Assembly: GCA_051294905.1 (NCBI GenBank)
Contig: CM119371.1
Coordinates: 25,298,001-25,362,000 of the forward strand
Source of the DNA: Botryllus schlosseri
Taxonomy: Eukaryota
Direction of reading: 5' to 3'
DNA: 64,000 nt
Below are positions 3,144 through 63,586 of the stretch, one piece after another. The notes below the pieces were generated by a model that searched no databases, was not told the DNA's origin, and saw nothing but the letters and a program-made list of their open reading frames with translations. The position numbers were made by a program, and so were the translations under genes. Each line of letters begins with the position of its first letter. The stretch's first letter is position 1.

Positions 3144-3269
3144 GATACAAATTTCAGAAAATAGTCCTCGGTGGAAGGGATCAGCGGTATCAATCCAAAT
3201 AGTATGGAGACCGTCCAGGATACCATAAGTGAAATTACTGCTCTCTTGAAGTTCGGCCTTGACAGAGGT
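3144..3269 (-). CDS. GPCR exon: ICL2-TM4-start of ECL2 (PLSRPNFKRAVISLMVSWTVSILFGLIPLIPSTEDYFLKFV)
   Basis: ggttttag/gtgagt, 126 nt, phase 2->2; W4.50 and IP motif. Confidence 0.88.
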
Positions 3270-3425
3270 CTAAAACCAATGAAAATCAATCAGAGCTTGG
3301 AAGAACATGGTAACAGAGTCCAGGAAACCAGAGGACACGCGACAATAGAGGACGGAAGTGGATAAAATGATAAATTGAGATCCGAAAATACCAGAGCTTC
3401 TTGGAGGTACAGAACTTCAATATAA

Positions 3426-3740
3426 AATTGAATAGTATATTCATATTGAAATAAACCCGAATATTATCGGCTGACACTCGTCAGGGGTAATCGTCAGCAA
3501 CTAGTAGAGAATTCGAAAGAACATTGTATATCAACAATCGTATCACCAAAGTTACCACCTGAAAATAGTACTTTGAACGCTCTCTCGCTTGAAATTTCAT
3601 GCTGGTGACGTCATATTTTGTGATACGATTGTTGATATACAATGTTCTGTCCAATTCTCTACTAGTTGCTGACGATTGCCCCTGACGAGTGTCAGCCGAA
3701 AACATTCGGGTTTATTTCAATATGAATATACTATTCAATT
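3426..3740. repeat. Long near-perfect palindrome (arms ~130 bp); a further single arm at ~26255-26430
   Basis: AATTGAATAGTATATTCATATTGAAATAAACCCGAA...ACAATCGTATCAC is mirrored by GTGATACGATTGT...TTCGGGTTTATTTCAATATGAATATACTATTCAATT. Confidence 0.92.
3678..3711 (+). ncRNA. Putative minimal type-I hammerhead ribozyme motif (mirror copy 3455-3488 on the minus strand)
   Basis: GCCC-CTGACGA-GTGTCAGCC-GAAA-ACAT-TC-GGGT: stem I, CUGANGA core, 1-bp stem II, GAAA, short stem III, UUC cleavage triplet. Confidence 0.5.
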
Positions 3741-4898
3741 GTGAAATACCAGAGTAGAGCAGTATTGGATACTGCTCCCACACCTAACTCAGATTTTTAT
3801 TACAAGCTCAACTTATTGAAGTGACAGTCGCAGTATCTACTTTTCCATTTCCATTTCTACTGCAACGACTTTTGAAGCAAATCAGATTTATTTACATGAT
3901 TGTGGTTCCGTGAAGTGAAATTTACTTTCATAATTGAAACTGAGTTTGATTTGGGGATAACGTCGAAGCATCTCAGTAAAGGAACACCATATCAATATTT
4001 TGCGATGCATCATGTCATTTTTCATTCAATTGTATTTTCCGAAATTCCCATCGCCCAGTCTCAATGAATAGTTTTCCACGTCCCGTTCTACTTCATATAG
4101 TTTAGTGACTTCTACAGCCTACATGGATTTGACAATTGCTTTGATATATCGTCAATGAGTTAGATCACATATTTAAAATACACGTACGCACAAGCTGAGG
4201 AGAACTATTCCCAATTTTCAGTAGAGAAATAAATCTATGCGTCTGTACTGTTCCCCGTGACATAACGCAGCAGAAAATATATGTTACCAAAATAATCCGA
4301 TACGCACCTCGATAAAAATCGCAACTTCATCATCATCAGTGTATGCATTATTGTACATAATATTTTTAAAGCGTCAAAGCAATTGAGGGAGGAGCAAAAT
4401 TTATGCTCTCAGTTCGCGAACAACTTAACTTCCACGAAAATGACAACGATGTGATTGTTAGCACGTAAGCTGGGATCCGATTGTTGCAAAACGGTCAACA
4501 CTAAGAACGGCTTAAAGGACTAAAATATTTGCCGTCACGGTGACCAGTTTGTTTACTTTGAAAATTGCGCAGAATCTCTTACTGTCAGGAATGTTTGTGC
4601 GTTGGGATATTAAAAACTTTGTATGGACCATATAGTAGCTTACGACTGGTCGAGACGTTTGGCCCACGGGCCGTAGTTTGGATACCCTGTCTACGACTAG
4701 AGTAGAACGCAAGTGGGTTAACCTCAATAGTGGAGTGATATTGCACTCATGAGTGGTAAAATATAACGTTATGGAAATTGCTTAAATCAATGGTTCTCAA
4801 ACGTTTTTTGACACGGCCCCCATTTATGATAGTGAAAAATGTTGCGCCCCTTTAACGTCAAATTACAAAAAGTAACCAGAATGCTAGAAATCCTTACG

Positions 4899-5842
4899 CA
4901 GTGGTTCTCAACCTTTTTGTCTTCGCGGACCCCTTTCGGACCGTCACGGACCCCCTAGGACCCCCAAGAAGTTTCAGATAAATTTTGCTCAATTATCATG
5001 CAATCGTCATCTGTCTCGTGCAAATGGTAACTGTGGGCTTCTAGTGATAAACAGCAATAAAATGACTTTTCTTGAAAATAAGATCATACTATTCATGCAG
5101 AAATTGGGTTGACTCCTATTATTTCAAAGCGAATTCTGCAACTGCATTTCTTGAAATACGTGGTCGTGTCTTGAAGACCCGCTCCTCCGATTTGACATGA
5201 ACGAGTGCCGAAAATCCATTTCCACAAATGTAGGTGGCGGGGAATGTAATATTACCGCGTAACGCTTCCGACGACACATTTGGGTATGATCCCAACAAAT
5301 ATAGTACCAAAATGGTTACGTATATCACAGAAGAAAATGGATTTTTGTAAACATTTCGAAGTCACCATGATTGCATGACCTTACTCATCCAACTTTTTAC
5401 CTCAATCCCCACCAAAACATCTACAAATAGCAAAATATCTGTACCAGTAGACTATTGGCATTTGAGCAATTATAATCAGTCTGCACAGTAGGATATTTCA
5501 TCTCAGATAACCATTCTGTTAATGTGAGCTCTGGAGTTTTACTAGTAATGAAGCGAAACTGCCTTGTGATTTCCGAATTTAAAAAAAAATACAAACTAGT
5601 TTATCAAAATGTTTGTATCAGTAGGCTATTGACAATTTGCCAATTAACATGAGTCTACACAGTTGGATGATTCATCTCAGATGGCCATTCTGTTGATGTG
5701 AGCTCTGGAGTTTTTACTGGTAATGAAGCGACACTGCCATCTGATTTTCCAAATTCAAAAAATACAAATTAGGTTATCAACTATTTTGAGGCTTCGCGGA
5801 CCCCATGAAAATGCTTCGCGAGCCCCCGGTTGAGAAACACTG
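4899..5842. mobile_element. hAT MITE (related partial copy at ~7400-8110)
   Basis: TIR CAGTG.TTCTCAACC, TSD TCCTTACG/CCCTAACG. Confidence 0.75.
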
Positions 5843-8391: not shown

Positions 8392-8573
8392 CTGATGATA
8401 GCTTGGAATCGGTACACTGTTATCAAAACCATAGTCAGAACCGATTGCTCGGACCCAATTATCAACAGAGCGCCCAAAAGAGAACAAGTGGAGCTGGATC
8501 TCCATTCAATGTCCACATTGCAGTAACTGCCCTCCACTTGAACGGCTTTGATGCAAATGGAAATGGTGTATAC
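8392..8573 (-). CDS. GPCR exon: TM2 end-ECL1-TM3 (VYTISICIKAVQVEGSYCNVDIEWRSSSTCSLLGALLIIGSEQSVLTMVLITVYRFQAIIR)
   Basis: attacag/gtacgt, 182 nt, phase 0->2, 62-nt upstream intron; LGR-type TM3 signature. Confidence 0.93.
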
Positions 8574-8635
8574 CTGTAATTGCTAGTGTGAACGAGAAAG
8601 ACCTAAACACGCAACATTCGCATGCGATTCGTTAC

Positions 8636-8784
8636 CCCAACGAGTAAGTCAGAAATCGATAGACTCAGGATGAGGAGCTTGTTGATGCTTGCGCGTGATG
8701 ACTTGGCAGCACGTCCCTCAGATTTCATGATGTCATGTAGTGTCGATGCAATCACTAAAGTACATCCGATGAGAGCGAATATGC
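8636..8784 (-). CDS. GPCR exon: TM1-ICL1-TM2 (SIFALIGCTLVIAST...INKLLILSLSISDLLVG)
   Basis: tttcacag/gtaacg, 149 nt, phase 1->0; LxxxD(2.50) motif; ORF 8603..8806. Confidence 0.92.
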
Positions 8785-9088
8785 CTGTGAAATAGCAAAT
8801 TTCCACTTAATATACTTTCATTAGCACAGTACAAATAGTCTGCTGAAGTATTGCATCGCCTTCCAATATTGCAGAATCTGTGTAATTTTACTAGCTTGTT
8901 AAGCCTGTTCAAATATTCAGTAGGCCTATAGCGAAGTTTCCGACTTTTTTGAACGTGCATTTTTAATATTGAACAAGTCATCGGTAACATAACTATACGA
9001 AATATATCAGTATATAAAGTAAGGCTATGGATAAAATTCTAAAAACAGAATTTCCAAAATATAGAATTGCAAAATTCCTTATAACAAT

Positions 9089-11399: not shown

Positions 11400-11925
11400 A
11401 TAACAATAAGACTATTGGTAAGGAAGTGAATAAATAAAAGCGAACTGAAGTCGGGCATAGTGATGAATGATGGTGACGTTGAAGTAATTTATGAACATAG
11501 GTATTCGCCTCCAGCCATTTCAGTATTTTTTAAACAATTAGGGTTATATATTAGTATGTAGCATATATTTGTGATTCGATATATAGACTATAGAGGATTT
11601 CTGCTCTTCTTTTATTAAAACTTAATGTTCTTCGAGGACAAATGTCCTCTTTTTCGCAATCTTTCCTCTTTTTCAACGTTATGCGACTACACAAAGGCGA
11701 CTATAGTTATACTCGCAGCAAAGTGCACGTGAGAATTGCATTTTTCTGGAAATGTCGCCGAAGATGACAACGGTACCGACGCGTTAGGTTACCTTTTTTG
11801 ATAAACTTACCGACGGTCGGCATAATCTATATAAATTTCCCATTTTCAAATATGCTATTGATATTCGAAGAGGTGTCCTCTTCGACGGATCTTAAGATAT
11901 GGTAAACCTAGATTACGCAACTTAC

Positions 11926-12055
11926 TAAACATCCACACCAGCAAAAGGACACCTTTGTTAGTAATCAGAGACCGCTCGTCTGAAAATGCACTAACTATGC
12001 AGCCTGGCTGGCATTCGTCCACTCCGGACAAACAATCCTTGCTGCCGTCGCAAAC
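11926..12055 (-). CDS. GPCR exon: last LDLa plus hinge and start of TM1 (VCDGSKDCLSGVDECQPGCIVSAFSDERSLITNKGVLLLVWMF)
   Basis: tttctag/gtaagt, 130 nt, phase 0->1. Confidence 0.9.
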
Positions 12056-12410: not shown

Positions 12411-12501
12411 CGCTTTTTCCTCAATGTATGTTCCATTGTTAGTACTATCGCACGAGAAATATGTGCAATTTCTTTCGCCTTTACGTGAACTTTCCAAACA
12501 A
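12411..12501 (-). CDS. GPCR exon (CLESSRKGERNCTYFSCDSTNNGTYIEEKA)
   Basis: aaacag/gtaagc, 91 nt, phase 2->0; runs into VCDG of the next exon. Confidence 0.8.
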
Positions 12502-12691
12502 CTGTTTTTCTAAAATGTATTTATATCTGAAGTTGTACGTCAACACCAATAAAATTTGTACCAGATATATCGTACTCTTGTATGGCGAAGTATCCTAGTG
12601 AGTAACAGTGATTTTTTTCACTGGAATTTTTTTCATGAGTAAGCTGCTAACAGCTGGACTAACGTTCAATTCAACGGTAGCATGGAGGTAC

Positions 12692-12769
12692 CTGACTTTC
12701 TTTTCTTCTTTGCGCCAACACTTCCTCATAGGATACACTGATGCAACGGTAGCTGTTGAAAATTCAGGG
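12692..12769 (-). CDS. GPCR ectodomain exon (PEFSTATVASVYPMRKCWRKEEKKV)
   Basis: ttaag/gtacct, 78 nt, phase 2->2; part of ORF 12595..12792. Confidence 0.65.
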
Positions 12770-14324
12770 CTTAACTGAACATATACTTTCACAAATATAT
12801 TATTTAAAGCACTTTAGAAGACTTTTAGGGTGTCTGTCAGCTTATAGAATTTAGATCAGTGACTCTGAAACTTGTGGCCGGCGTCCGTTTGGGGTGCGTG
12901 AGTCACGAAACAGTTTTATGGGACGGCAAAGCACTTTTATAAAATTGACAAGATCCAGAATCATAACGTTGTCGAATTTAAATAATTTCAAGCAAGTTTA
13001 CAAACAAAACTCTAGGGGCGCCTAACATCGATTCGTAAACCAACAAAAAAGAAATATTTTCGCGCAGATTTTTTGAACCTGAAATTCTTTCTGGATATCT
13101 TGATTTTGTCATGGGCACACCTCCGGAAAGAGAACCATAATTGCTACAAAAATTGGCTATTGGCACTGGAAACTGTGGGATACCGGTATATTATTGGGAT
13201 AGCTCAAGACCAAGGGGATAACTTGGTCTAGGCGTGTGCTCGTATGAGTGCAAGAGCTCTAGGTATCGACACTTGTGCACTCAACATTTCCGCATTGAAG
13301 CACTCCGCAAGATATTAATTTTCAGCCAACATGCGGCTTCGCGAAGGGCGCTGCCAAAAAGAAAACGGCGATAGCCGCTCAGCCCAAAACGGCCGCCGCA
13401 TGTTGTTCTAAAGCTAAACGTTCAAAAATGATATGTCGAAGCACCGAAATCACCTATCCTTGCAATGTCAGCCGCACGGTTCACAAGCAACTTTCAGCGG
13501 AATATATTGAGTTGTGCGAAGAAATGCTAATTTAAGATCAACTGGCAACCTACGTCATAGCAACATCCAGTACTGTCAGAGAAGCGTCAATCATTACTTG
13601 ATGATGTCTCAAATTAACAGCACCCATCTCTCAACAAAGTGATTATTAACAGTATTATGCAGTCTGATGGTAACGCGCGAGACCTTCGCGGATAATATTA
13701 AACGTGGCCTTGCGGTATGAGCAATTATTATGCAAGAATATTTATTCGCGCCCAAATTTTTCAAGGCACCATCTCTATCAGCTTCCTCAGAAAAACCCGA
13801 TCACGGGAGCTGAGGGAGCGAAAAAAATTATAGTCGTATTAGCAAGAACGAAGATTGTACATGGATTGGATTCATGAACCCCAAATATTTCGTGCTTCGC
13901 GAGGAATTAATAGATCGAAATGTGCGTTGATTTCTCATAATACTAATTCACTAGCGTTTTGGTGCGTATAGTAGGCCATAGTGATACCTATAAATAGATG
14001 AGTCCATCGTTTAGGAAGACCCATTGAGGAGTGTTCACAAATTTTAATTATACTGACAAAAACAGACTCACTGATAATGTGAATTGTTATCCTAAGATCT
14101 GGGAAATTATCGATGGTTTTTGAGTCCCATTTATCCGACGATAACTCAGCAAATGGTTATCAAACGCATACAATGCTTTGGACAATGAACGAACATGTCC
14201 CATGATCCCATTTCAACATATTAATCTGCACAACGAAGAAAAAGGCTTGTCGTATACACTTCGTGACCAAAGAGCCTGTTAATAGCTCGTCCGTTTCAAA
14301 AAGTCGTGAGATTTCAATAATTAC

Positions 14325-14656: not shown

Positions 14657-14762
14657 AGGTTTATACTATGTTTTTCCAGAACGACCCTACAATGGGCGTT
14701 ATTCCCGAAGCACGCCTGAGCAGCATTCTTATATGCGCATACAAAATCGGTAAATTCTTCCC
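14657..14762 (-). CDS. GPCR ectodomain exon (EEFTDFVCAYKNAAQACFGNNAHCRVVLEKHSINL)
   Basis: gttttcag/gtaagt, 106 nt, phase 1->2, in phase with the downstream chain. Confidence 0.7.
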
Positions 14763-32246: not shown

Positions 32247-32405
32247 CCCATTCCTGTCTTTCACATATTTCGGGACGCTCAGACGATTGACAAAGGCACT
32301 CGTCAGTCAAATCGGGACAATCAAATGATCCGTCACACAACCTGGTTGTGGGGATGATTATATTGGGATGTCCAACGCAACGGAAGCATGCCGCGTCAAG
32401 ATGAT
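32247..32405 (-). CDS. GPCR exon: LDLa-like ([53 protein letters not shown])
   Basis: cccaag/gtaagt, 159 nt, phase 1->1, CDG.FDC.D.TDEC motif. Confidence 0.88.
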
Positions 32406-36740: not shown

Positions 36741-36839
36741 AAGATTGTGTTGTGTTGTGTGTGCCTGATTGTGTTAAGATGTTAAGCTATATCGATACTT
36801 ATATCTATTTTACACACTGAACTGCGACTCTATATCACG

Positions 36840-37703
36840 ATGACAGCTACTGAAGCTGAACTGAAAGATGCCACAAGGAAGCTTACCTCCAAGATTGAGG
36901 CGAGCGAGTCTCGTGTCATGAAAAAAATGAGAGATGAACTAAAAAGCGTTGTCAATGAAGCAGTCAGCCAAGTACTGGCACAGCTATTGAAAGATAGTGA
37001 TTTTAAAGAGCTAATTGCCAAATCCACACAGATGGATACAAAAATTGATTATATTATTGATCAAAACAAGAAAAGAGACAAAGAACTTCAAGAAATCAAG
37101 GCATCTCAAGACTTCATCAGTTCTGCCTTCGAAGCCTAAAAACAACAATTCAAGGACCTCGAAGCACAGTATTGCATTCTCCAGATGGAAAATAAGAAAT
37201 TGCAACAAGCTATCTCAAATAAAGCAAGACAAATTGACGACATCGACCAAATCCAACGGAGCGATACCCTGGAACTCCATGGCGTACCTGTTAAAGAAAA
37301 TGAAAGATTAGACGAAGAAGTCACTAAAATTGGTGCAGCTCTTGGTATCTCACTAACATCAGATGACTTGAACTCTGTCTTCAGGATTCGATCTCAAAAT
37401 GCAGCTATGAGCGATCGTCCACCTTTGAAAATTGCAAAATTCCACCGCTTAAAGACCAGGCGACTTTTTCTCCAGAAGCGTGGAGATCTTCGGAAAGTCA
37501 CGGAACATCCTGAATACAAAAATATATACATCAATGAAAACCTGACAAAATTCCGCAGGATCCTATATGCCAAAGCACGACAAGCTGCTAAAACGTTGAA
37601 GTACGACTTCTGCTGGACTGCAAATGGGAAAGTATTCATGAAGCGAGACAATAATACACGCACAATCCTCATTGATTCTCCAGAAAAGCTGAACCAGCTG
37701 TGA
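36840..37703 (+). pseudogene. LINE ORF1 (coiled coil + RRM-like LELHGVP + IYINENLT...FCWT.NGKV C-terminal domain)
   Basis: ORFs 36840..37139 and 37185..37703 share a frame and are separated by one TAA. Confidence 0.85.
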
Positions 37704-37786
37704 AAGGCCTGGTGATCATCTCGAGTATGTAAGTCACTTTGTCATTGCTTAAAATGGCTTCCAGCTAAGACCATACAAATGCATAC

Positions 37787-40481
37787 GTGAAAAATTCTGA
37801 GCTGCTTTACAACAATATTGAGATATGCGAAAGTGTTACTTTGGATGATTTATCCTACAATTTATCTACCGCTTTTCAAGACTTTGTTATCTGCCACTTC
37901 AATATTAGATCTTTGCAAAAACACTATTTATCTCTTCATCAAATCATTAGAGACATGAATATTGCTCCTAGTATAATTGCTTTGTCTTAAACTGCCCTGC
38001 GTGACGACCCCTTATTGAATATCAATTTACATGGTTATACGTTCATCCACACCACCACAGATACCAAATGTGGCGGAGTTGGTATGTATATCAGAGACGA
38101 CATTCCCTACTCCCTTGTTGATAAGTATTGCCTGAATCTGGATACAATTGAAGAAAAATGGGTAGAGGTTCAAGTTGGCATAGCCAGTGTACCTTCCATT
38201 ATTGTCGGTGTTATCTACAGACACCCTGTGCCAAACACCTCTGACTTCAGCTCTGAGCTATCCCACGCCATTGTTAAAATATCTAACTCGAAGTTACCAT
38301 TTTTCGTTGTCGGAGACATCAATATTGACATGGCATCCAAGAAAAGCAAAAATACTTCAAGTCATCTTGAAAATATGAGGGCTACTGGTGCAACACAAAT
38401 CATTACTAATCCTATCAGATACTGTGACACCACTGCAACTATTATTGACCATTGCTACACTAATATAGCACAAGGTTCAATTAAACCATATGTCCTGATT
38501 GATGACACTACTGATCATTACCCAATAATAGTTCAATTCAAGCGCCGTATGCATAGACCATTGGCTTATGCGACACTCTCCAGGAATCTGACTCCAGAAA
38601 GCATGACTAATATCTACAATCACCTCTGGGACTATTTTGAAAAATATGAACCAATACCTCTGACTGAATTGAATTTTAATCAGCGATTCAACATGTTTGT
38701 CAATTCAATATTAGAAATAGTTAATGTATACTCACCATTGACAGGTTTATCTCGCAAACAGCGTAAATTGAAACGTAAGCCATAGTTAATTCCATCTATC
38801 CTCCGATCCATTCGTATAAAGAATAAGATGTATCGTACATTATTCCTAAAGGGGAGCCCTGAAGACAAAATAGTCTATAAATCATATGCAAACAACCTTT
38901 CGCGAACTATCACTAAAGCTAAGCAAACATACTACATGTCCCTCTTCACACGGTTCAAGGGTGACCCAAAATCTGCCTGGAAGGCAATAAATGGTATAAT
39001 AAATAGGGGCGATACTGCAGCAACCTATCCAACTCTCAAAACTGCTCAAATTCATTGCACCTGCTATTGCCAGACATCTATGCACATTTTTCAACTTCTC
39101 AATCAATCATGGAATATTTCCAGACCATCTCAAACAAGCCAAGGTTGTACCAGTTTACAAAAAGAATGACAGTCTAGAAATTGGAAACTACAGACCAATT
39201 TCAGTTTTGAACTCAATTGCCATTACATTTGAAAGACTACTCTACCGTAGAATCATTGACTTTGTTATGAAAAATTCACTATTATCCGATGAGCAATTCG
39301 GGTTTTTAGCCAATAGAAGCACTACGCAGGCCCTAGCCGACATGACATCCAGACACTTCAAGTCACTTGATAACAAAAAACCATCATGCTGTGTTTTTTT
39401 AGATATCAGCAAAGCATTTGACTCTGCTAACCACCAGATACTGATTAGAAAACTTGTTCAGTTTGGCATACGTGGTATTGCCTCGAAACTTATATCTGAC
39501 TATTTGAAAAACCGCCGACAATGTGTGTATGTCAATAGTACTATCTACGCTCCATCAACTATAACTTGTGGCGTCCCTCAGGGTTCTGTACTGGGGCCTT
39601 TATTATTTCTTATATATATCAATGATGTTAGCAAGGTCTCCTCTCTGAAAACCGTACTATTCGCTGATGATGCCTGTTTCTCAGCATCCTCAACATCCTT
39701 GCAAGAATTGACATCCAATGAAATGACAAAGATCTGTAATTGGATGAGAAGTAATCAACTTTCCATCAACCCTAGTAAAACCCAACTTCTCTTATTTAAT
39801 AATTCCAATTCGCTAAAAACCAATCCATTTTCTGTAAGAATCAATGAAACTGTCATTAACCCAGCTGATCACGTTCGCTATCTTGGAATTCTTGTCGATT
39901 CGAAATTGTCATGGAAACCTCAGATCGAGTCAGTCACCTCGAAATTGTCACGGGCTACGGGCATGCTACAACGATTGAAATATCTAATGCCACAAAAAGC
40001 ACTGTGCGCAGTGTATTTTGCTATTTTTCAATCTCAGCTTCAATGTGCAATAAATATTTTGGGACATACAAATGTAACAAACCTTACAAAAATCAAAACT
40101 CTCCAGAAACAGGCTCTTCGTGTCATTAGTGAATTGCCTCCCAGGCAACGAATTCTCCCGGAATATCGAAGTCATGGTATACTCAGAGTTGCCGACCTAA
40201 TTCAGTACGAGACGGCAAAGATGATGCACACCATCTTCCACACAAACAGGTCATACTTTAATTCGCATTTTACAACTTTTGCGAAAACTCATGGTTATGA
40301 AACTAGACAGGTATCGAGAAATTCTATTTCGCTGCCTTTCCTGTCACGATCTTCATCCCGCAATAGTTTACATTTTGTCGGTGCGAAAACTTGGAATGAT
40401 CTCCCTGCAGAGCTGATACCATTACCACCATGGCAGTTTAAAAAAATATATAAAAATTATTTACTCCAAACGTACTGTTGA
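37787..40481 (+). pseudogene. LINE ORF2: apurinic endonuclease + reverse transcriptase
   Basis: HFNIRSL, GGVGMYI, VIYRHP, GDINID, IDH, TDHYPI (APE); FLDISKAFDS, GVPQGSVLGPLLFLIYIND, LFADD, YLGI (RT); stops at ~37990 and ~38785, deletion/frameshift near 39040-39200. Confidence 0.92.
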
Positions 40482-42981: not shown

Positions 42982-43017
42982 CTTCATTATTCTCTCCACA
43001 TAAGCATTCGTCTATTC
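42982..43017 (-). CDS. GPCR mini-exon (GIDECLCGENNE) completing an LDLa-like CDG..C..G.DEC motif
   Basis: ctttacag/gtaagg, 36 nt, phase 1->1. Confidence 0.8.
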
Positions 43018-44418: not shown

Positions 44419-44671
44419 TGTTATGTTCGTGCATTTTACGTTGGTATCGTTTGTTCTTTAATTTCTAGGATTAGTAATTACCGCCAATCATTATTTCCGT
44501 GTGTCGTGGTTCGTATTTATACCCTGTGTTCTGTTGTGTACTGGTTTTTCGTTTAACTGAACCCTGGATCGTGTCGCCTGTCTTGAAGTTATTCTGCTGT
44601 ATAATATACTGATTTCGTATTGCAACCTCGTCGTATTGAGTTATTGTTCAGGCAAGATCGAGAACATAACA
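44419..44671 (+). repeat. 5' LTR
   Basis: Direct repeat of 51852-52104, about 7 mismatches by eye. Confidence 0.95.
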
Positions 44672-47531
44672 ATTGGTGTCAGAAGTCGGATTCATAGTTA
44701 TTTCTGCGACGAATACTGTATATATCATGGAAGCAAGTATATTGAAGCTTCTAGAGAAGCAACAGGAAATGATGGCGGAACAACGAGCACAGCACAAAGA
44801 AGAGCTGGCACAGCACAAAGAAGACATGAAGCAACAAAATGCTCAGCACAAAGAAGAAATTGCGCAATTAACGCAGAGGTTGAATCCCGATGCATCAACA
44901 CCTGAAGCTACCGCTCCCAAATTTGATTCATTTGTAAAATCAAAGGAGAAATGGGACCAATAATATCTTCAGCGATTCAACCATCACCTAGCAATTTACG
45001 GCATTTCCAACATATAGAAAAAAGAGCCTGTCTACCCTCATGGGTTGGACCTGAAACGTACTCGCTCCTACGTAATTTGTTTGGTGCTGCTGATGTCAGT
45101 GCGCATACTTTCGACGCGTTGACTGAGAAGTTGGCTACACACTTCAAGGACTCAATTCATGTGCAAGCAGCCTGGTACGAATTTTACAACTGTAAAATGC
45201 AACCGGGACAATCGTACGCCGATTGGATCGCTACCCTACGCGGAATCTCCAATGATTGCAACTTCATATGCTCAACAGATGGCTGTGATCAGAGCTACGT
45301 TGATGAGCTAATGCGCGATCTCATCATTAAAGAAACGCCGCACGCGGATGTGAGACGGCATTGTCTAACACAAACCAATCCATCCCTTGACGACGTTCTC
45401 AAAGTAGCCGCAACACATGTGGGAACGCTGGAAACTGATAGGGTTATCCAGGGCGAGAGTAGCGGTAAAGACACTTCCATCGTCAACAAAATGACGGGAA
45501 GTTATCAGAAGGGGGAAAAACCTTCCAAATCCATCCAAGGCAACTTCCCAGAAAGACTGAAATCCTGCAGCCGCTGTTTCATCGATCACCAGAGAAAAGA
45601 CTGTCAAAATCGGCATGCAGTATTTCAGAAATGTGGTCGTAAAGGTCATATCAAACCTGTGTGCATGTCAACCAAACCTAGTATCACGCAACAGGTCACA
45701 TCCGTCAATTTCTGCTCAGTGCCACTCCTCTCCTTCGACACCGATCAACTATATCGAAGCGTGGGAAATCAGCTCTGGATCAACTCCAGCATCAACGGCA
45801 TTTCGTTGCCGACACAGTGGGACACTGCTGCACCCTCCGCCATGGTGGGATTGACTGGGTACAAAACTTTGGGCTCTCCGAAACTCTCAGCATACCATTG
45901 CTCTTTCGTAGCGTACGGCGACAAGCCACTGAAAGTGAAAGGTATTTGCACTGTAACCGTGCAGGTGATTCCGAAGTTCGAGTTTGCTTAAAATTGGTAG
46001 TTCTCGACGAACACCGTGGCCAGAGCATTTTCGGTCTCGATTGGAGCGATGCTTCCTCAATGACCGCTAAGGGAACGTCTGCTTTGGATGCAATTTCCTC
46101 GCAGATGGTCAAGTCGCAATCATGTAATACTATTGACATTTCTGATTCGAACGACAAATTGGTATCTTTTCAGTCCAAATTTCCTTCCGTTTTCTCCAAT
46201 GTATTAGGACGATGCACCAAGACAAAGGTGACAATTCACTTAAAACCTAATGCCAAGCCCGTATTTAACAAGCCGCGTCCTTTGCCCTTCGCAAGGCAAA
46301 TCGCTGTTCAAACCGAATTGGATAGACTAGTCAATCAAGGTATTCTCGAACCAACCAATTACAGTGATTGTGCAGCACCAATTGTTGCCATTACTGAATC
46401 AAATGGATCAGTACGCATTCTTGGTGACATCAAAGCATTGAATCAACAAATTCAGATAGATCAACACCCCCTGCCCTCCTTGGATGAAATCCTTCACAAG
46501 TTACAGGGTGGCTGTATTTTCACGAACATTGATCTTGCCGATGCTTATTTTCAGCTAGAATTAGACGATGATGCGAAGAATTTGTGTGTCATCAACACGC
46601 AATTCGGTCTATTCCGTTATCGACGCATGTGTTTCGGAGTCGCATCTAGTCCCGCAAATTTTCAACGTTGTATGGATGCCATGATCGCCGGCTTACCCGG
46701 TGTTGCTAGTTTTATCGATGACACAATCGTTACTGGCATTGATGAACGCGATCATTTTCGCAACTTATCGCTACTTTTTGAGCGCCTCACCGAATACGGT
46801 TTCACCGTCAACTTCGCTAAATGCGAATTTTGCAAAAGTAGTATCGAGTACCTTGGTCATATAATCGACAAGGACGGCAAACGCCCGTCTCACAAATCCG
46901 TTGAAGCAATCAAACAGTTGCCTAAACCTCAGGATGTTCGCCAGCTACAGGCATTCCTGGGCAAAGTCAATTATTATCGCGCGTTTATTCCTAATTTTAC
47001 GAATAAAGCCACTGCCTTGTACCGTCTTCTTCAAAAAGACGCGGAATTCATTTGGAATACGGACTGTGACGCAGCTTTTCGCATTCTCAAAAACGACGTA
47101 ATCGACGCTACGCAGTTAGCTCATTATGATGTACACAAACAGCTCATTTTGTCACGGATGCTTCTCAATTCGGAATCGGCGCTGTACTCTCACTCGAGCA
47201 CAATGGCGAACAGAGACCGATCGCGCACTCATCGAAAACGCTTTCCGATTCGTAAAAATCCTACTCTCAAATAGAGAAGGAAGCTCTGTCAATCATTTAC
47301 GGAGTCACTAATTTTCGTCAATTCTTGCATGGTAAAAAATTTACGCTCGTGACGGACCACAAACCGCTTTTAGCTATTTTCTCGCCAGACAAGAAAATTC
47401 CCGTGATTACAGCGCAACGCTTACAGCGATGGGCACTAACGCTCATGACTTTCGAATATGACATTCGCTATAAACCGACTAATCAGCACGGAAACGCCGA
47501 CGGTTTATCTCGCCTACCAAAGGGTCCAGAC

Positions 47532-49321
47532 CAATGTTCCCTCTAAGCTGCGCACGTGCGCAAATGCGCAGTGCTGAAACAGTCTCTGCGCACAGAAAAT
47601 CTAGGCTGCGGACAAAACATCCGAGGTGATGATTTATTTCAGTCGTTGCGCACTGTTGTCCAAGGGACCGCGCAGGCGCGCAGACTCGTGAAAAATTAGA
47701 GGGAACATAGCCAGGGGAAAATAGTGCTATCGCTGAAGTCTGAAGCCGAGGTACAAGTGCTTCCCGCAAAGGTAGATATTGCGCTCCGTGAGAATATGAG
47801 AATCTGCAGTCACGTGCGCTTCGCGAACGAGATTTTTCTTTTAGTATTGTCTCGTACGCGCGAGCGATACTGATTTCATTTCAATAGCGCAATCTTTTCT
47901 GGAAATGGCGAAAGAACATGGTTTAACTAAGTTATAAATAACAATGGGCTAGCTCGAAGTTAATCTGCGAGAAACTAACGAATAGTCTTTTCCGCGTGCC
48001 ATGAACATTGCCGTAAGATTTACTGTACAATTACATGCCGTGAATTTTCGAAGTCATCACCTCCATCAGGCGAATCTGATCACGTATGGTGAGATAGGAT
48101 AATGTGCAAGCCAAATTAACAAAGAAATGCGATTCGTTTAACATAAAAATGGTTGTCGGAGCATGTGAAAACGGAAGAAACAACTGTAAAATTAGGTGAA
48201 AATTTTTCTTTTTCGAGTGAGAGAGGTCCGATCTGCAAAATATGTCGAGAAGCAAAATATGGAAAAGAATAGCATACATTTTCTTCGGAAAGTCACCGCA
48301 CTCGAACTGAAGCCAAATCGCCCTCAAAATGTGCACCACAACACACGTGCGATATCCATTTTGTCGAGGTTTATCGCCATTGCGGGTGAATGCTCCTTAA
48401 CCCTTTGCGACACCACAGAGTCGCACGTGTGTTATGCTGCATATCCCGAAAATATTTCAGCTGAAGCCGAAAGTCCGAAACGCGGTGGCTTTCTGAAAAA
48501 AAGTGCCCTCAATGGCTTAACTTCAAGTCGAGACCACATCTTGTTTCGAGCGTAGTTCTCCGTTATCACTTATAATGTGATTATCTGGTGTCATGCAATA
48601 AAACTAAGTGTAAATGCTGTACTTTGATTATATCAATGAATCATGTGACTCGAATGGATACACGCACGTCTGGGTTACGCGCAGGACCGTAACTACCGCA
48701 CCCCAAACACCCCAATTGGGGTACCCGATCTCAAAGGGGAACCAAAATATTTCGTGAATAAATATGAATCATGGAGTATTTTTTGCAACTTTTTCAAAGA
48801 AGAAATGACAATTTGAAACCGTGTACGTCTTAGTTTAGTACGTTTAAGCGATTTCAATATCTTCTGACACAGCAGATAGGAGGACACGAAATAGCATCAT
48901 GTACCGAAGTCAATATACCAACGGTTACGCCCGAAGTTGTTTTAATAATATTTAGGGGTCCTACCTTTTCGAACACACCTCTCTCGATCAGTTCTACCGG
49001 TAAATCTGTTTATGTGAGCATAGAGAGGATAAATATTGATAGCAATATATATGCAATTCCAGATCATTGACCGATTCAATCATGAAATATATAAATTTTT
49101 CACTTTTCGCGCGTCTAGGCTATGCACCCACTATAGAGGCACCGAATGTAGAGGATAAGTTGCGGCCCAAAACGTAGGAGCCGAGGGGGGTCTGGAGGGC
49201 GAAGCCCCCAGAAGTTCGGTTTATCATCATATGGGGGGCCTGGTTACGCACTGTTGTTCATGGGCCTGCGCAGTGAGTTGACTTGTTTGCGCAGACTCGT
49301 GAAAAATTAGAGGGAACATTG
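47532..49321. mobile_element. Non-autonomous hAT-type element inserted in Gypsy pol
   Basis: TIR CAATGTTCCCTCTAA / TTAGAGGGAACATTG, perfect 8-bp TSD GTCCAGAC. Confidence 0.92.
48682..49242. mobile_element. hAT-type MITE nested in 47532-49321 (same family as 15083-16365)
   Basis: Starts CAGGACCGTAACT; TSD GTTACGCG/GTTACGCA. Confidence 0.7.
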
Positions 49322-50584
49322 GTCCAGACCCTGAGTTTGACGAACTGGAAATTCGTGAAAACGCGGAGATCGTTCACGCTATTAACATGGCATTCGATGG
49401 CTTACCGTTAACTCGCAATGAAATTCGCGACGCGACGCTGAAGGACAAAACCATGAAACTAGTAAAATTATCTGTCACTCGTGGTAATTGGAATTCAAAG
49501 ACCCATATTGATGATTTTTCTTGGTTTTCTACTCACAAATATTCGCTTTCTCTGCACGAAGACTTAGTCATGCTCAATATTGATGGTTTTCAGCGCGTAG
49601 TAATTCCGCAGTCACTTCGCTCGCGAGTCTTATCATTGTTGCACGAAGGACATTGGAGTATCGCGAAAATGAAGCAGATGGCTCGACGTTACATCGCATG
49701 GCATTCCATTAATCGCGACATTAAAAATTTCGTTAAGAGTTGCGACGCTTGACGTAAGGTAATGAAAGCGCCTGATCGTCCGTATCGCGAATGGCCAAAA
49801 ACTTCTGAAAGCTTTGAACGAATTCACTCGGATTTCGCAGGTCCAATGAACAATAAAATGTTTCTTGTCATCGTCGATGCGCATTCGAAATATCCTTTCG
49901 TTAAAGTAATGAATGTCGGTTCTACCACAACCTTGTGTGTGGTCAATGTTTTGAGGGAAGTCTTCTCTATCGAAGGCTTGCCCATAACAATTTTCACGGA
50001 TGGCGGGCCGCAATTCACATCGAATGAATTCGATACGTTTTGCTCTAATTTGGCAATCAGCCATATCGTATCACCGTCTTTTCACCCTGCCTCGAACGGG
50101 GAAGCGGAGCGTTTCGTCCAGACTTTAGAAGCTGGATTAATAAAAAATTGCGACGGGGGAAAAGATCTCAACTTCGCGCTCCAAACACTTCTCGCTACGT
50201 ACCGATGTGCACCGCACCCGGGCATAGATTGGAAAACGCCTGCCGAGATTTTACATGGTCGACAGCCGCGCAATTTGTTAAGTTGTGCTCGCCCTTCGAC
50301 AAATCGAAACCCGTTACGCCTGTACAATCAGTACAATCAGTCACTCATTTCGAGATTGGTTCCTCGGTTTACGCTCGCAGTTACCGAAGCGGACCAAAGT
50401 GGGTTGCTGGCGTGGTGACGGAAATACTGGGGCGTGTTGTGTACATTGTAAAAACTGATTATGGGTATTGGAGAAGGCATAAGAACCAACTCCAACCACG
50501 CTTGATTTCAGCTGGCAATAATACAGCCGCACAGGAAATTGTTCAACCTCAGCAACCACAAGTTGAGCAACCATTGGTCAGGAA

Positions 50585-51710
50585 CAGAGATGGCCACAGT
50601 CCGGTTCAGGAGCCGGAGCCGGAGCAGGATTTTGATGAATTTTACTGTGGCCGGATCGGAGCCGGATTCTGACACTGCCATATGAGCCGGATTTAAACAG
50701 GATTCGATATTCATAACAAATATTGGGTGATAAAGGTTCAAGATATCTTATATTCAATGAAAAAAGCTGCTTCGATATTATTTCCATAGTTAAATGCATT
50801 CATTGCTATGGATCAAGCCCAGGCTGGTTCCGACAATAAATGACAACGTTGAAACCGCTGATACCGGTCACGTCGTTGAAATGCGTAAGCAACATAAGTA
50901 ATATTTCTGCAGTGATGAGATTACTGCTGCTGGGTGAGATGAGGACGAAGGCAGGCTCCAGCAAGCGAGCTGCAGAAGTGTTTTGTTTTCGAATTCAGTT
51001 GTTCCTCAGATATTGATTCTTATCCTTCCTGTTCATCAGCCATTAGGGTACTTGATATCGGTTGTCAGGATGACAGAAAAGCGAGGTGTCGGTGTTGTTG
51101 CAGAGGTAACTGGTGGTTCTGATTTCTGATGTCATTTGGAATGATTGTGTGGTGTAGTAATGTATGAATATATGCTGGCACGGTCAATTGGTCATGTTTA
51201 TGATTTCGGAAACACACTAGAACTGAAGTACCACCGGTACTCTCTGATTGATTGTGCACATCATCATGGCATGCTGATTGATTATATAATATTATATATA
51301 TTTCCTATTCATTGCTGCTCTGCTCTAGCCTGGGTTACTATGTTTACCCTCTCCGTAAAGCAACTAATATTGCTTTCTCTGTTCTCACAGTCTTTTTAGC
51401 TCATTTCCCCTGCCTAGTTCCTATACTACTCGCATTTATATTCAAGATATATACCGTACCGGTACCTAACATTATTGATTCGAAATGTGATATAAATAAA
51501 CCCTTGTAAGGTATTACTTGATACTAATTTGTTGATTATAATGTTCATATCTGTTTTGCAGGCTATATTTAATGTGAAATAGCACTAAAGCAATAGCAGG
51601 ATTTTTTCGGATCCTAATTTTGTTGCTCAACTGTCGGACTCCGAAATCCTATTTGACTCTCGGATCAGGACGGATACGGATTCCCAAAATCTGGAATCCG
51701 CCCATCTCTG
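50585..51710. mobile_element. Non-autonomous hAT-type element in the Gypsy 3' region
   Basis: TIR CAGAGATGG / CCATCTCTG, perfect TSD GTCAGGAA, subterminal CCGGA repeats. Confidence 0.88.
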
Positions 51711-51851
51711 GTCAGGAATAGGACACAACGTCCTGCAGCTAGTCATGCCCGATCGTCGGCCAGACGTTATCCGCTTAGAATTAGGACACAAACTGATTTC
51801 TATCGGCCAACGTAAACCGCGTCCTTGTACTTTCAACTTACAGGGGAGGAC

Positions 51852-52104
51852 TGTTATGTTGGTGCATTTTACGTTGGTATCGTTTGTTCTTTAATTTCTA
51901 GGATTAGTAATTACCGCCAATTATTATTTCCGTGTGTCGTGGTTCGTATTTATACCCTGTGTTCTGTTTTCTACTGGTTTTTCGTTTAACTGAACTCTGG
52001 ATCGTGTCGCCTGTCTTGAAGTTATTCTTCTGTATAATATACTGATTTCGTATTGCAACCTCGTCGTATTGAGTTATTGTTCAGACAAGATCGAGAACAT
52101 AACA
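51852..52104 (+). repeat. 3' LTR
   Basis: Direct repeat of 44419-44671, preceded by PPT and followed by TSD. Confidence 0.95.
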
Positions 52105-53447: not shown

Positions 53448-53593
53448 CTTCACTACATATCGGTGCCCCGTCACAGATGTATTGCTTTGGAAATTTGCAT
53501 CGTCCAACGCCATGGTATTCAGAATAACTACCAGAGCACGCTCCATAATCCGATTCCAAATCTGAGGATGCCGGTATTTCGTCGCTCCCATCG
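53448..53593 (-). CDS. GPCR exon: DGSDEIPASSDLESDYGACSGSYSEYHGVGRCKFPKQYICDGAPICSE
   Basis: ttttaag/gtgata, 146 nt, phase 2->1; overlaps ORF 53359..53559. Confidence 0.87.
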
Positions 53594-54159: not shown

Positions 54160-54250
54160 CTGCAGTCTGCAATTCCGTTGCAAAAATCTGTTGCTAGATG
54201 ACATTTTGATCCATCGAGGCATTCGAACTCCGTTTCCAAACAATTCATTT
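54160..54250 (-). CDS. GPCR exon: LDLa N-half (EMNCLETEFECLDGSKCHLATDFCNGIADCS)
   Basis: ctccacag/gtacta, 91 nt, phase 1->2; paralogous to 62975-63065. Confidence 0.9.
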
Positions 54251-61100: not shown

Positions 61101-61584
61101 GATTAATTTATGGAAATGAAAAAAATACATACCGCAACAAATTGACGCGATCGGCGCAGAATCGGATTCAGCAACCTACTATTAGTCTGAATCAATCATT
61201 AAAATTTTTAGTGCTAATTTATTTGGAAATTTGTAGATCAGTGTAATTGTATGGGTCGAAAAGATGTTCTGATTGAACGAAGATAGAGAATCACTGGATT
61301 CAAGTTCATCAAAACTCACTCATTCTGTACTACAACAACCCAGGTTTCATGTTAGATGATTTTATTAACAATATTTGATCTGTTGCTGGTGTATGCTAAC
61401 CGTGATGTCACTAACGAAAGCCGAAATTTGATTAATTTACGAAAGTGGTAAAAATTCATACGGAAAAAATTTGACGTGATTGAGAAATTCTGAGCACAGA
61501 ATCGGATTCAGCAACCTTAAATTAGCCTAAATCAATCATTAAAATTTTTGGCGCAAAATTTTATTCGAAATTTGTAGACCAGTG
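58123..61584. mobile_element. Chapaev3-like non-autonomous element with nested hAT MITE
   Basis: TIR CACTGGTCTACA / TGTAGACCAGTG, 3-bp flanks CAA/CAA. Confidence 0.7.
59004..60278. mobile_element. hAT-type MITE with AGTAGA subterminal repeats
   Basis: TIR CAGAG(G/A)TGG(C/T)CA, perfect TSD GTCGAGAC. Confidence 0.88.
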
Positions 61585-61592
61585 CAATCTAT
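60920..61592. repeat. Tandem duplication, two diverged ~335-bp units
   Basis: ~60920-61251 aligns with ~61252-61592; each unit ends TTTGTAGA(T/C)CAGTG. Confidence 0.85.
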
Positions 61593-61613: not shown

Positions 61614-61744
61614 CGTTGTTACATAAAGATTCCCGTACTGGTTCCAGCTCCAGCGGGAGATTGCAAAGCTTAGATTTGTGTGTTGCTCTTCTGCATAATG
61701 TACGATTGTCCTCATACGAAACATATATCTCGTCGGATCCGTCT
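61614..61744 (-). CDS. GPCR exon: DGSDEIYVSYEDNRTLCRRATHKSKLCNLPLELEPVRESLCNN
   Basis: tttttcag/gtaagc, 131 nt, phase 2->1; matches part of ORF 61561..61770. Confidence 0.88.
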
Positions 61745-62974
61745 CTGAAAAATACCGGGAAGGATTCCATTTACAATCTTCATCTAGGGGTCATCGAATC
61801 GGCTGCATGCATTCAGTGAAGCGAAAATATTATGGGAGGCCATTTGGGTCATGTTTCAGACGGGAGACGTGACCAACTAGATAGCTTATTGATCGTTACG
61901 CCTTGGATTCTATTCCCGGCCTGCGCACCTTATAGAAATAAAATGGCGATATCATATGAGTACTTGCATAACTAAGCATATAGCGATTTGCGTATTCTGT
62001 TCAACTGTACATTAACCCCGATAAAACGAATGTAAGTTGTAAATATAATTTGGCTAGTATTATGATCACTAGGCAAGTTTCGAAGACAAGGTGAAATGGT
62101 ATTCAACTGTTTATTAGCGTCTAATCTGACATGGAGAAATTTTGAACTGTTTGAATTTTATGGATGTAATCGTTTGACTGCATTTCATAAAATTAGAGCA
62201 GTACTTCCCAGCCCTGAATTCAATGGAAAAGCGATCATTAATAATGTGCCACTGGGTACTGGTGTTTTAATATGTAAATCAACAATATTACAAATTGTTT
62301 TGATGAATTCTCAAACTCTCGTGACACTCTATGACATCGCAGGATAACCTATTATAATCGCTACAGCGGCTCGATCGAACTTAGAAATATGGTCTGATTG
62401 ATGTCTTGTCTCGTAAGACTCCCGCAATCCAGTGAGTTGATAATTATTCATTTGTGGGGCCTGTTCTGTCCGACTGAGACTAATCATTTCGAAATTCGTA
62501 CTGATTATTCTTTTCTTCTCTCTCCAATTTGAATTTCAATAGGGCATCTGAAACTCAAGGTGATGCGGTAGAAGCACTGCTTAGAGATCCTAAGTTTGCA
62601 ACCAACAAATCGATTCTCAATTGAAAAACGTTTCATTCAGAAATCGAAAATGGGTGAGTACAACACACATGCGTTATTTTACTCAAATTATCACAGGTAG
62701 TCGCGAATGATACCGCAAAACGTTCACTAAAAGTGTAAGAAGAGCCCGTTATTATTTGCAGTTTTATCTCGGAATGAGTAACTCAGGAATCAATTCCCAG
62801 AGCCCGTTGTTAGACCAAGCATTTAGTGGCGACGTAAACGAATCGTCATAATAATCACCAGCTTGCAAGTGCTACATCTCTAACAGTGCGTTTTGATCTT
62901 ATGTATTTGCGGCCACATGTGAATAAAATATATATTTATTGACCTAATATGGACGATCACTAGAGCAACAGTAC

Positions 62975-63065
62975 CTGCACTCTTTCCATCCGTCGCAAAA
63001 GCCTGTAGCAACAAGGCAACCCGATCCATCGTGGCATGTGAACTCTCCTTCGTAACAATTCAATC
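62975..63065 (-). CDS. GPCR exon: LDLa N-half (GLNCYEGEFTCHDGSGCLVATGFCDGWKECR)
   Basis: ctcctcag/gtactg, 91 nt, phase 1->2, canonical LDLa Cys spacing, joins DGSDE of the next exon. Confidence 0.9.
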
Positions 63066-63452
63066 CTGAGGAGATATTCAATTAAAAAAATTTCTTAGTT
63101 CAGCATTTTTGTCGGAACGATTTATTTACTAATAATAATCGAGTTTATTCGACAAAATTTGCTAGCCCCGGTAACTCATTTTATACTAGGCTTGTACCAG
63201 AAGTGATAGTAGTTGCATAAATGATTTATGAAGTTCCAAGTTCCCCTAACTGGTATACTCTCACAACTTGGCCTGCATAAATTTAGTTTATCGTTTACCT
63301 TTAGCCAACGAATCAGAATCAGTAGAATTAATGCGCTGACGCATTATCCGTTTTCAATGCGAAGTGACGCTGCCCGATAAGTCCCCACTGGCAAGTTTAT
63401 ATTTACTGTAGCTGCTTTCAAAAAAGAATTATTTTAACCTATTCATATTTAC

Positions 63453-63586
63453 CATCCCTGCACAGTCTCTTCCTGTCGTGTTCTAGGTATCGTGGTAGAA
63501 TGCAAACTGGTGAAAGGCCTGAGGTTTTCCGTATGCATTTCGTCGCATTGTCAAATGTCGTATTGTGTGGTTCGTCCGATCCATCG
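63453..63586 (-). CDS. GPCR exon: C-terminal half of an LDLa module plus Cys linker (DGSDEPHNTTFDNATKCIRKTSGLSPVCILPRYLEHDRKRLCRD)
   Basis: tttgacag acceptor, gtaaat donor, 134 nt, phase 2->1, DGSDE motif. Confidence 0.85.

What the first reader, a model, noticed from the sequence alone, without database searches (positions are those of the whole stretch)
3144..63586. Hidden >60-kb gene: multi-LDLa GPCR with an LGR-type 7TM but no leucine-rich repeats
Seen: short exons that the ORF track barely shows splice in phase to encode at least 6 LDLa/LDLa-like modules. The last one is joined directly to TM1 within a single exon (VCDGSKDCLSGVDECQPGCIVSAFSDERSLI...VW). Established: RXFP1/2 and GRL101 place an LRR block between their LDLa module(s) and the 7TM. 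Inference: this is an LRR-less LDLa-GPCR, like those reported from ascidians. It is probably an orphan receptor whose ligand binding relies on the Cys-module array.
Basis: partly seen in the sequence, partly recalled or inferred. Interest (0 to 1): 0.7.

Follow-up and report, generated by a model that had tools for sequence, protein, structure and literature searches.

The report
Sea-squirt LDLa receptor without leucine-rich repeats
This is a long, many-exon gene for a sea-squirt cell-surface receptor that carries a chain of cysteine-rich LDL-receptor-type modules in place of the usual leucine-rich repeats; it belongs to a tunicate receptor family described in 2008 whose ligand is still not known.

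Summary
The gene is real. It lies on the minus strand as 15 small GT-AG exons (1.7 kb over 60 kb) and runs off both ends of the window. It encodes six complete LDLa-type modules, an LGR-type hinge and TM1-TM4. The model is collinear with Styela clava XP_039271686.2 (39.6% identity over 558 columns). In a TM tree it sits among Styela LRR-less receptors (100/98). No leucine-rich-repeat exon was found between 32247 and 11926 (best 5.8 bits; 97 of 101 held-out LRR windows score higher). It is a new member of the tunicate LDLRR-GPCR family described in Ciona (PMC2396169). One correction: splicing is not cleanly in phase. With the best-looking splice sites, 13 of 14 junctions fit, but 14657→12509 does not. 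An alternative acceptor or a micro-exon restores the frame. The membrane-near array is also shorter than in 28 of 29 relatives. No RNA junction evidence was obtained, so a broken allele or an assembly deletion remains possible (about 18%). Likely mechanism (inferred): a large protein ligand binds the LDLa array and shifts a conserved hinge that gates an ECL2 tethered agonist, as in RXFP1. Ordinary at family level.

The parts
63453..63586 (-). First exon in the window (phase 2 to 1): acidic tail of an LDLa module that begins outside the window, then a 3-Cys linker
   Evidence: aligns to Styela P0014
62975..63065 (-). LDLa module, Cys1-Cys5 (phase 1 to 2)
   Evidence: Pfam Ldl_recept_a E 0.00047; tblastn E 4e-6
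61614..61744 (-). LDLa acidic tail plus 3-Cys linker (phase 2 to 1)
54160..54250 (-). LDLa module, Cys1-Cys5 (phase 1 to 2)
   Evidence: Pfam E 0.0028
53448..53593 (-). LDLa tail plus most of the next, reduced module (phase 2 to 1)
42982..43017 (-). 36-nt exon that completes that module (phase 1 to 1)
   Evidence: strong splice sites; matches the Styela alignment
32247..32405 (-). Family-typical LDLa module (phase 1 to 1)
   Evidence: Pfam E 0.0035; tblastn E 6e-12, bin hit by 71 relatives; 43 bits
32086..32170 (-). First half of a 4-Cys LDLa-like module (phase 1 to 2)
   Evidence: 12.9 bits
27583..27626 (-). Second half of that module (phase 2 to 1)
14657..14762 (-). 3-Cys linker or start of a degenerate module (phase 1 to 2); upstream side of the unresolved junction
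   Evidence: homology weak on its own (score 31), placed by splice sites, frame and alignment
13554..13572 (-). Candidate 19-nt micro-exon (phase 2 to 0) that would restore the frame and the C-x5-C spacing; unproven
   Evidence: 2 of 25 loose candidates give this spacing
12411..12509 (-). Tail of a degenerate module plus first half of the last module; ends in phase 0; an alternative acceptor at 12501 would give phase 2
11926..12055 (-). Second half of the last LDLa module, hinge and first half of TM1
   Evidence: tblastn E 1e-10, bin hit by 73 relatives
11963..11986 (-). Hinge motif F-S-x4-L-I, same spacing as RXFP1 Ile396/Ser397/Leu402/Leu403
   Evidence: motif in 63 of 71 LRR-less relatives; RXFP1 residues from bioRxiv 10.1101/2022.01.22.477343
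8636..8784 (-). Second half of TM1 (position 1.50 is Cys), ICL1 and first part of TM2 (Asp2.50 kept)
8392..8573 (-). Rest of TM2, ECL1 and TM3 (Cys3.25 and Arg3.50 kept)
   Evidence: 7tm_1 E 0.018; PDB best hit LHCGR E 3.2e-5; 183 representatives at E<=0.001
3144..3269 (-). ICL2, TM4 (Trp4.50 kept) and start of ECL2; last exon in the window
   Evidence: tblastn E 1e-7
44419..52104 (+). Intronic Gypsy-like LTR retroelement (253-nt terminal repeats 97% alike; RT, RNase H, integrase domains); inflates the gene span
36786..40478 (+). Intronic LINE (ORF1, endonuclease, RT)
33037..34298 (+). Intronic DNA-transposon remnant (THAP, DDE_Tnp_4)

Best explanation
The locus is one intact, intron-inflated gene for a tunicate LDLRR-GPCR: a rhodopsin-class receptor descended from the LGR group in which a tandem LDLa array sits directly on the hinge and 7TM with no leucine-rich repeats. 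The host is most likely a styelid-type ascidian (inferred from the relatives).

Shown: exon structure, six LDLa modules, LGR-type TM1-TM4, no detectable LRR exon, family placement, and a conserved hinge motif.

Inferred (about 50% if the gene is intact): the acidic, calcium-binding LDLa modules capture a large secreted protein or protein complex. The last module, fused to the hinge, takes over the braking role that the LRRs have in RXFP1. Binding shifts the hinge (F-S-x4-L-I), frees the ECL2 C-hydrophobic-P motif to act as a tethered agonist in the 7TM pocket, and activates a G protein (Gs by analogy only). The frame across 14657→12509 is kept by the 19-nt micro-exon at 13572-13554 or by the acceptor at 12501 (inferred; not resolved).
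For: Whole model collinear with Styela XP_039271686.2: blastp E 1e-76 to 3e-79 for all four in-frame routes; 221 of 558 columns identical, including the unusual Cys linkers. 40 of 49 long relatives scanned carry LDLa plus 7tm_1 with no LRR family; LRR families appear in 2 of 49, a scallop and a sea anemone protein. Tree of 58 rows: the 48-row group holding the window and all named tunicate rows is split from the 10 outgroup rows at 100/100, and the window lies in a 12-row group (9 Styela, 2 unnamed, window) at 100/98. LRR scan: 709 segments, best 5.8 bits; 97 of 101 held-out windows score higher. All 15 exons are stop-free with AG/GT ends. Asp2.50, Cys3.25, Arg3.50 and Trp4.50 are kept. Hinge motif in 63 of 71 relatives; ECL2 Cys 84 of 86, hydrophobic 84 of 86, Pro 78 of 86. 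The RXFP1 hinge/ECL2 mechanism is from passages of bioRxiv 10.1101/2022.01.22.477343. Family definition and large-ligand hypothesis are from PMC2396169.
Against: One junction is out of phase with the best acceptor. The 12501 acceptor follows an A-rich tract and the micro-exon is one of 25 loose candidates. The stretch between exon 32405 and the last module is 109-132 aa against 133-293 aa in 28 of 29 relatives (the 29th, 29 aa, looks mis-anchored), so two to three modules are missing. TM1 position 1.50 is Cys, seen in only 2 of 132 relatives. No transcript evidence. ECL2, TM5-TM7 and the signal peptide lie outside the window. The fourth position of the ECL2 motif is Arg or Lys in 56 of 84 LRR-less relatives, not hydrophobic as in RXFP1, so the tethered-agonist step may differ. 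No ligand or signalling data were found for any member.
Confidence: 0.72

Rival explanations
1. Same family, but this copy is broken or mis-assembled: exons for two to three membrane-near modules were deleted between 14657 and 12509, leaving a frameshift. It would be a pseudogene or null allele, or would make only a secreted ectodomain.
For: Phase 2 versus phase 0 at the best sites; segment shorter than in 28 of 29 relatives; rare Cys at 1.50; the introns are full of mobile elements.
Against: No stop codon in any of 15 exons and all splice dinucleotides intact. Four in-frame routes exist. The orphaned half-module in exon 12509 has lost its acidic residues but kept its cysteines, which suggests an old, tolerated loss (inference). 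One of the closest TM3 relatives also has Cys at 1.50 (P0007).
Confidence: 0.18
2. Intact gene, but with the LRR brake gone the receptor is constitutively active; the LDLa array serves trafficking, tethering or inhibition by a ligand.
For: The RXFP1 7TM without its ectodomain signals at 70% of the agonist maximum through ECL2 and the hinge. The hinge residues needed for activation are kept here.
Against: The hinge Ser that takes part in inhibition in RXFP1 is also kept (71 of 85 relatives; invariant in 19 of 19). A diverse, expanded ectodomain fits ligand recognition better (inference).
Confidence: 0.2
3. Intact gene acting mainly as a scavenging or endocytic receptor, LDL-receptor-like, with little G-protein coupling.
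For: The acidic residue of the DRY motif is replaced (Tyr here; Asp in only 26 of 191 relatives) and Asn1.50 is replaced. LDLa arrays bind lipoproteins and protease complexes in the LDL receptor family.
Against: Arg3.50 is kept in 188 of 191 relatives and Asp2.50 in 172 of 176. TM7 Asn-Pro-x-x-Tyr is invariant in the 19-row alignment of relatives.
Confidence: 0.12
4. The upstream LDLa exons belong to a separate LDL-receptor-like gene, or the 7TM exons belong to a GRL101/RXFP-type gene with LRR exons hidden in the long introns.
For: Introns of 10-13 kb separate the exon groups; no RNA link was obtained.
Against: One Styela protein covers all exons in order. No LRR signal. The last LDLa half and TM1 share one exon, which leaves no room for LRRs in the position they hold in RXFP1 and GRL101.
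Confidence: 0.03

Closest known systems
Ciona LDLRR-GPCR family (Kamesh et al. 2008, PMC2396169); closest protein Styela clava XP_039271686.2 (P0014)
   Same: Tandem LDL-A modules at the N-terminus, no LRRs, relaxin-receptor-like TM region; same module and linker order as the Styela protein; nested in the same tree group.
   Different: About 80-90 residues (two to three modules) shorter next to the membrane; one unresolved splice phase; Cys at TM1 position 1.50; spans over 60 kb because of intronic mobile elements.
GRL101 / type C2 LGRs (multiple LDLa + LRR + 7TM; PMC4079206, PMC2396169)
   Same: Multiple LDLa modules, LGR-type 7TM, hinge with F-S-x4-L-L spacing.
   Different: No LRR block; the hinge cysteine seen in LRR-bearing relatives is absent; separate branch of the tree.
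RXFP1/RXFP2 (type C1 LGRs)
   Same: LDLa and 7TM in one chain; hinge residue spacing; ECL2 C-hydrophobic-P in relatives.
   Different: RXFP1 has one LDLa module and an LRR block that binds relaxin; here there are six or more modules and no LRR, so relaxin-type binding has no site.
Glycoprotein hormone receptors (LHCGR, FSHR, TSHR; type A LGRs)
   Same: Best solved-structure matches for the TM2-TM3 exon alone (LHCGR E 3.2e-5; RXFP1 E 0.064).
   Different: LRR ectodomain, long hinge, no LDLa modules. None was in my tree, so the LGR subtype is not settled by my own analysis.

Membership tests
LDLRR-GPCR (Ciona, PMC2396169) | One or more (2-10 tandem) LDL-A modules N-terminal to the 7TM | tested here: met
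   six module hits on the spliced model; Pfam hits on 4 of 11 single exons, below the gathering cut-off
LDLRR-GPCR (Ciona, PMC2396169) | No leucine-rich repeats | tested here: met
   within the window: best 5.8 bits in 709 segments, 97 of 101 held-out LRR windows higher; one strict LRR motif in the whole window, on the opposite strand. The N-terminus outside the window was not seen.
LDLRR-GPCR (Ciona, PMC2396169) | TM region similar to LGR / relaxin-receptor 7TM | tested here: met
   TM1-TM4 only: 17 best PDB matches are all LGRs; 42-46% identity to Styela members
LDLRR-GPCR (Ciona, PMC2396169) | Falls in the divergent tunicate group, apart from LRR-bearing LGRs | tested here: met
   100/100 split and 100/98 Styela-rich subgroup (58 of 94 eligible rows plus the window, midpoint root). 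The paper's own ci01 models were not in the tree; Ciona XP_026689954.1 and H2YG05 were.
LDLRR-GPCR (Ciona, PMC2396169) | Complete seven-TM domain in one transcript with the LDLa exons | tested here: inconclusive
   TM5-TM7 lie outside the window; one junction is unresolved; no RNA junction data
GRL101 / type C2 LGR | Multiple LDLa modules | tested here: met
GRL101 / type C2 LGR | LRR block between the LDLa modules and the hinge | tested here: not met
   last LDLa half and hinge share exon 12055-11926
RXFP1/2 (type C1 LGR) | Single LDLa module plus LRR block | tested here: not met
RXFP1/2 (type C1 LGR) | Hinge activation residues (Ile396, Ser397, Leu402, Leu403 spacing) | tested here: met
   F-S-x4-L-I at 11986-11963
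LGR family as a whole | ECL2 C-hydrophobic-P-hydrophobic motif | not testable with these tools
   outside the window; in LRR-less relatives the first three positions are kept and the fourth is Arg or Lys in 56 of 84
RXFP1/2 (type C1 LGR) | Activation by a relaxin/insulin-like peptide | not testable with these tools
   needs a signalling assay

The most novel reading that the evidence does not exclude
These receptors are a natural experiment on the LGR switch. With the LRR brake lost, the LDLa array docks on the hinge and gates a rewired ECL2 agonist (a basic residue where RXFP1 needs a hydrophobic one). That would make them GPCRs switched directly by large plasma proteins or lipoprotein-like particles on ascidian blood cells. 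This copy would be a further-trimmed variant, with two to three modules deleted, the halves re-fused by a 19-nt micro-exon, and TM1 Asn replaced by Cys.
Probability: 0.25. Interest if true: 0.55.

Novelty: new member of a known kind. Interest (0 to 1): 0.27.

Why it matters
As a gene it adds one more member to an expanded tunicate family, and it shows how such genes hide: 1.7 kb of exons in 60 kb of transposon-filled introns, with exons as short as 36-44 nt. The family matters more than the locus. It is still orphan in the papers I could search, and it keeps the RXFP1 hinge switch while lacking the LRRs that restrain that switch. Testing a member would show whether an LDLa array can replace LRRs as ligand site and brake, and whether a GPCR can be switched by a lipoprotein-sized ligand, as proposed in 2008. 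Any member would serve; a complete Styela or Ciona gene is a better test object than this truncated one.

Tried and rejected
No genome is held for the window, so the missing ends could not be fetched.

Sequencing runs: no RNA holder listed; 4 of 24 rows hold part of 8380-14780 and none was laid. No read-level junction test was obtained.

Word-seeded protein searches with single exons found nothing: 0 of 24 candidates and 0 of 1. This is weak evidence. The Atlas gave unnamed or 7tm_1 fragment clusters only.

The obvious join 14657→12055 was rejected (stop codons). GC or weak GT donors inside exon 14762 that give phase 0 were set aside once exon 12509-12411 was found. My first model used acceptor 27621 and lacked exons 43017, 32170 and 12509; it was replaced.

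Local alignment of six introns on both strands against 15 relatives' ectodomains gave top scores of 44-52. Three true exons score only 31-44, so further short diverged exons cannot be excluded. Candidates at 27076, 25943, 24828, 57751 and 8903 were viewed and rejected for lack of fitting splice sites or order. The first LRR control was leave-in and inflated; it was redone with held-out proteins.

Earlier scan findings: none.

Papers: 'LDLRR-GPCR' occurs in 1 paper; 'Botryllus' with 'GRL101' in 0 (the genus was my guess). Searches listed no paper that, by title or abstract start, reports a ligand for the family. I recall a Halocynthia cDNA report of an LDLa-bearing GPCR; one search did not find it, so it is unverified. 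No structure was predicted.
Full report
Observation. The finding describes a minus-strand gene. After comparison with relatives the model has 15 exons: 63586-63453, 63065-62975, 61744-61614, 54250-54160, 53593-53448, 43017-42982, 32405-32247, 32170-32086, 27626-27583, 14762-14657, 12509-12411, 12055-11926, 8784-8636, 8573-8392 and 3269-3144. All have AG/GT ends. They total 1,709 nt, with introns of 62 to 12,820 nt. The signal is well above chance: of 4,297 stop-free segments on both strands, the five best scores against a module profile made from 257 modules of relatives are model exons (43.0 to 12.9 bits) and the best plus-strand score is 7.0. The spliced model has six module hits and begins with the tail of a seventh. 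The gene continues past both window ends; the last 259 residues of the closest relative have no credible match in 1-3143. The span is due to introns holding a Gypsy-like LTR element, a LINE and DNA-transposon remnants.

A flaw in 'splices in phase'. Thirteen of 14 junctions fit with the best-looking sites. Exon 14762-14657 ends in phase 2, whereas exons 12509 and 12055 begin in phase 0, and both direct joins run into stop codons. Four routes keep the frame: an acceptor eight bases further on at 12501, a 19-nt micro-exon at 13572-13554, or short exons at 12752-12692 or 13809-13770. All four give similar scores against Styela (E 1e-76 to 3e-79), so homology cannot choose. The micro-exon restores the usual five-residue cysteine spacing, which 2 of 25 loose candidates do; that is modest support. 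The stretch from exon 32405 to the last module is 109-132 residues, against 133-293 in 28 of 29 relatives with both anchors (median 219; one 29-residue case looks mis-anchored). Two to three modules are therefore absent here. Short diverged exons could still be hidden, since three true exons score at or below the noise of my intron scan. No RNA junction evidence was obtained, so this point stays open.

What it is. The TM2-TM3 exon finds 183 cluster representatives at E<=0.001, of which 150 were returned. Its 17 best matches among solved structures are all LGRs, led by LHCGR (E 3.2e-5), with RXFP1 at E 0.064. I scanned 49 of the longer hits against Pfam (one more was too long): 40 have Ldl_recept_a and 7tm_1 with no LRR family, 2 have LRRs, and 7 are fragments or other proteins. 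Of 20 hits looked up, 13 are named tunicate proteins (Styela clava 9, Ciona 2, Phallusia 1, Clavelina 1), 3 are scallop or cnidarian (including the two LRR-bearing ones) and 4 have no name. Styela XP_039271686.2 aligns with the whole model in order at 221 of 558 columns, including the repeated three-cysteine linkers, which argues for one gene. In a maximum-likelihood tree of hinge plus TM1-TM4 (58 rows; 57 relatives chosen from 94 eligible by score, name or LRR content; 173 columns; midpoint root), the 48 rows that include the window and all named tunicate proteins are split from the 10 outgroup rows at 100/100. The window sits in a 12-row group with nine Styela proteins at 100/98. Human RXFP1/2, snail GRL101 and type A/B LGRs were not in the tree. 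The host is probably a styelid-type ascidian; that is inference.

LRR test. A two-repeat LRR profile trained on two proteins scored 709 minus-strand segments between 32247 and 11926. The best scored 5.8 bits, the level of the plus strand (7.8), while 97 of 101 held-out 24-residue LRR windows scored higher. The second half of the last LDLa module, the hinge and the start of TM1 share exon 12055-11926, so LRRs cannot occupy the position they hold in RXFP1 and GRL101.

How it probably works. RXFP1 is activated by its own ECL2 (Phe564, Leu566) with hinge residues Leu402 and Leu403. It is held off by the LRRs with Ile396 and Ser397, and the 7TM alone reaches 70% of maximal signal (passages of bioRxiv 10.1101/2022.01.22.477343). 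The window's hinge has the same spacing, F-S-x4-L-I at 11986-11963, as do 63 of 71 LRR-less relatives. In relatives the ECL2 motif keeps Cys (84 of 86), a hydrophobic residue (84 of 86) and Pro (78 of 86), but its fourth position is Arg or Lys in 56 of 84; this part lies outside the window. Asp2.50, Cys3.25, Arg3.50 and Trp4.50 are kept. Position 3.49 is Tyr, which is common in the family (41 of 191), and 1.50 is Cys, which is rare (2 of 132). I infer that the LDLa array binds a large secreted protein through its acidic calcium sites and that the last module replaces the LRRs as the brake on the hinge-ECL2 switch. I put this at about one in two if the gene is intact. Constitutive activity and a mainly scavenging role are the rivals. 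None of these steps is shown.

Comparison with what is known. Kamesh et al. 2008 (PMC2396169; I saw passages, part 5 of 10 of the text, supplement 3 as text without its drawings, and passages of supplements 1 and 2) define 14 Ciona LDLRR-GPCRs. These have 1-10 LDL-A modules, no LRRs and relaxin-receptor-like TM regions. [quoted passage not shown] The window meets every defining feature I could test; completeness of the 7TM is untested. It fails the LRR criterion for GRL101 and RXFP1/2 (type C2 and C1 as named in passages of PMC4079206). Seven literature searches (listings only for papers not named here) showed no report of a ligand. The library lacks most subscription journals.

Verdict. A real, well-spotted gene and a correct family call, but a new member of a known, expanded tunicate family. 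What is particular to this copy is a shorter membrane-near array, one unresolved junction and a Cys at TM1 position 1.50. There is about an 18% chance that it is a broken allele or an assembly deletion. Interest 0.27.

Noticed in passing
window 8826-8903, minus strand: Stop-free stretch inside the TM1 intron with LDLa-like C-x5-C-x8-C spacing (8.4 and 10.4 bits). It is out of order and too close to the next acceptor to splice; relic, local mis-assembly or chance.
   Followed up: partly
window 4470-4580, minus strand: TM3-like stretch with a D-R-F motif and an in-frame stop in the last intron; possibly a fragment of another rhodopsin-class gene. The part before the stop has no Pfam hit.
   Followed up: partly
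window 57710-57751, minus strand: Short stretch resembling the end of an LDLa module (9.9 bits); the splice phases do not fit the model.
   Followed up: partly
window 44419-52104, plus strand: Gypsy-like LTR retroelement with terminal repeats 97% alike and frameshifted coding regions; it is interrupted by an 811-nt stretch (47532-48342) that is 96% identical to 43248-44058.
   Followed up: partly
window 36786-40478, plus strand: LINE with ORF1 (Baculo_FP_2nd hit), endonuclease and RT in several frames.
   Followed up: partly
window 33037-34298 (+) and 40871-41470 (-): THAP and DDE_Tnp_4 frames on one side of the LINE and a SWIM zinc-finger frame on the other, perhaps one DNA transposon split by the LINE (inference).
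   Followed up: no
window 18763-19239, plus strand: BED zinc finger frame (E 5e-8), probably a transposase remnant.
   Followed up: no
window 60908-61588: Tandem duplication of about 340 nt, 80% alike, just downstream of exon 61744-61614.
   Followed up: no
relatives P0014 and others, ECL2 region: LRR-less tunicate relatives have a long ECL2 whose LGR motif ends in Arg or Lys in 56 of 84 cases instead of a hydrophobic residue.
   Followed up: partly
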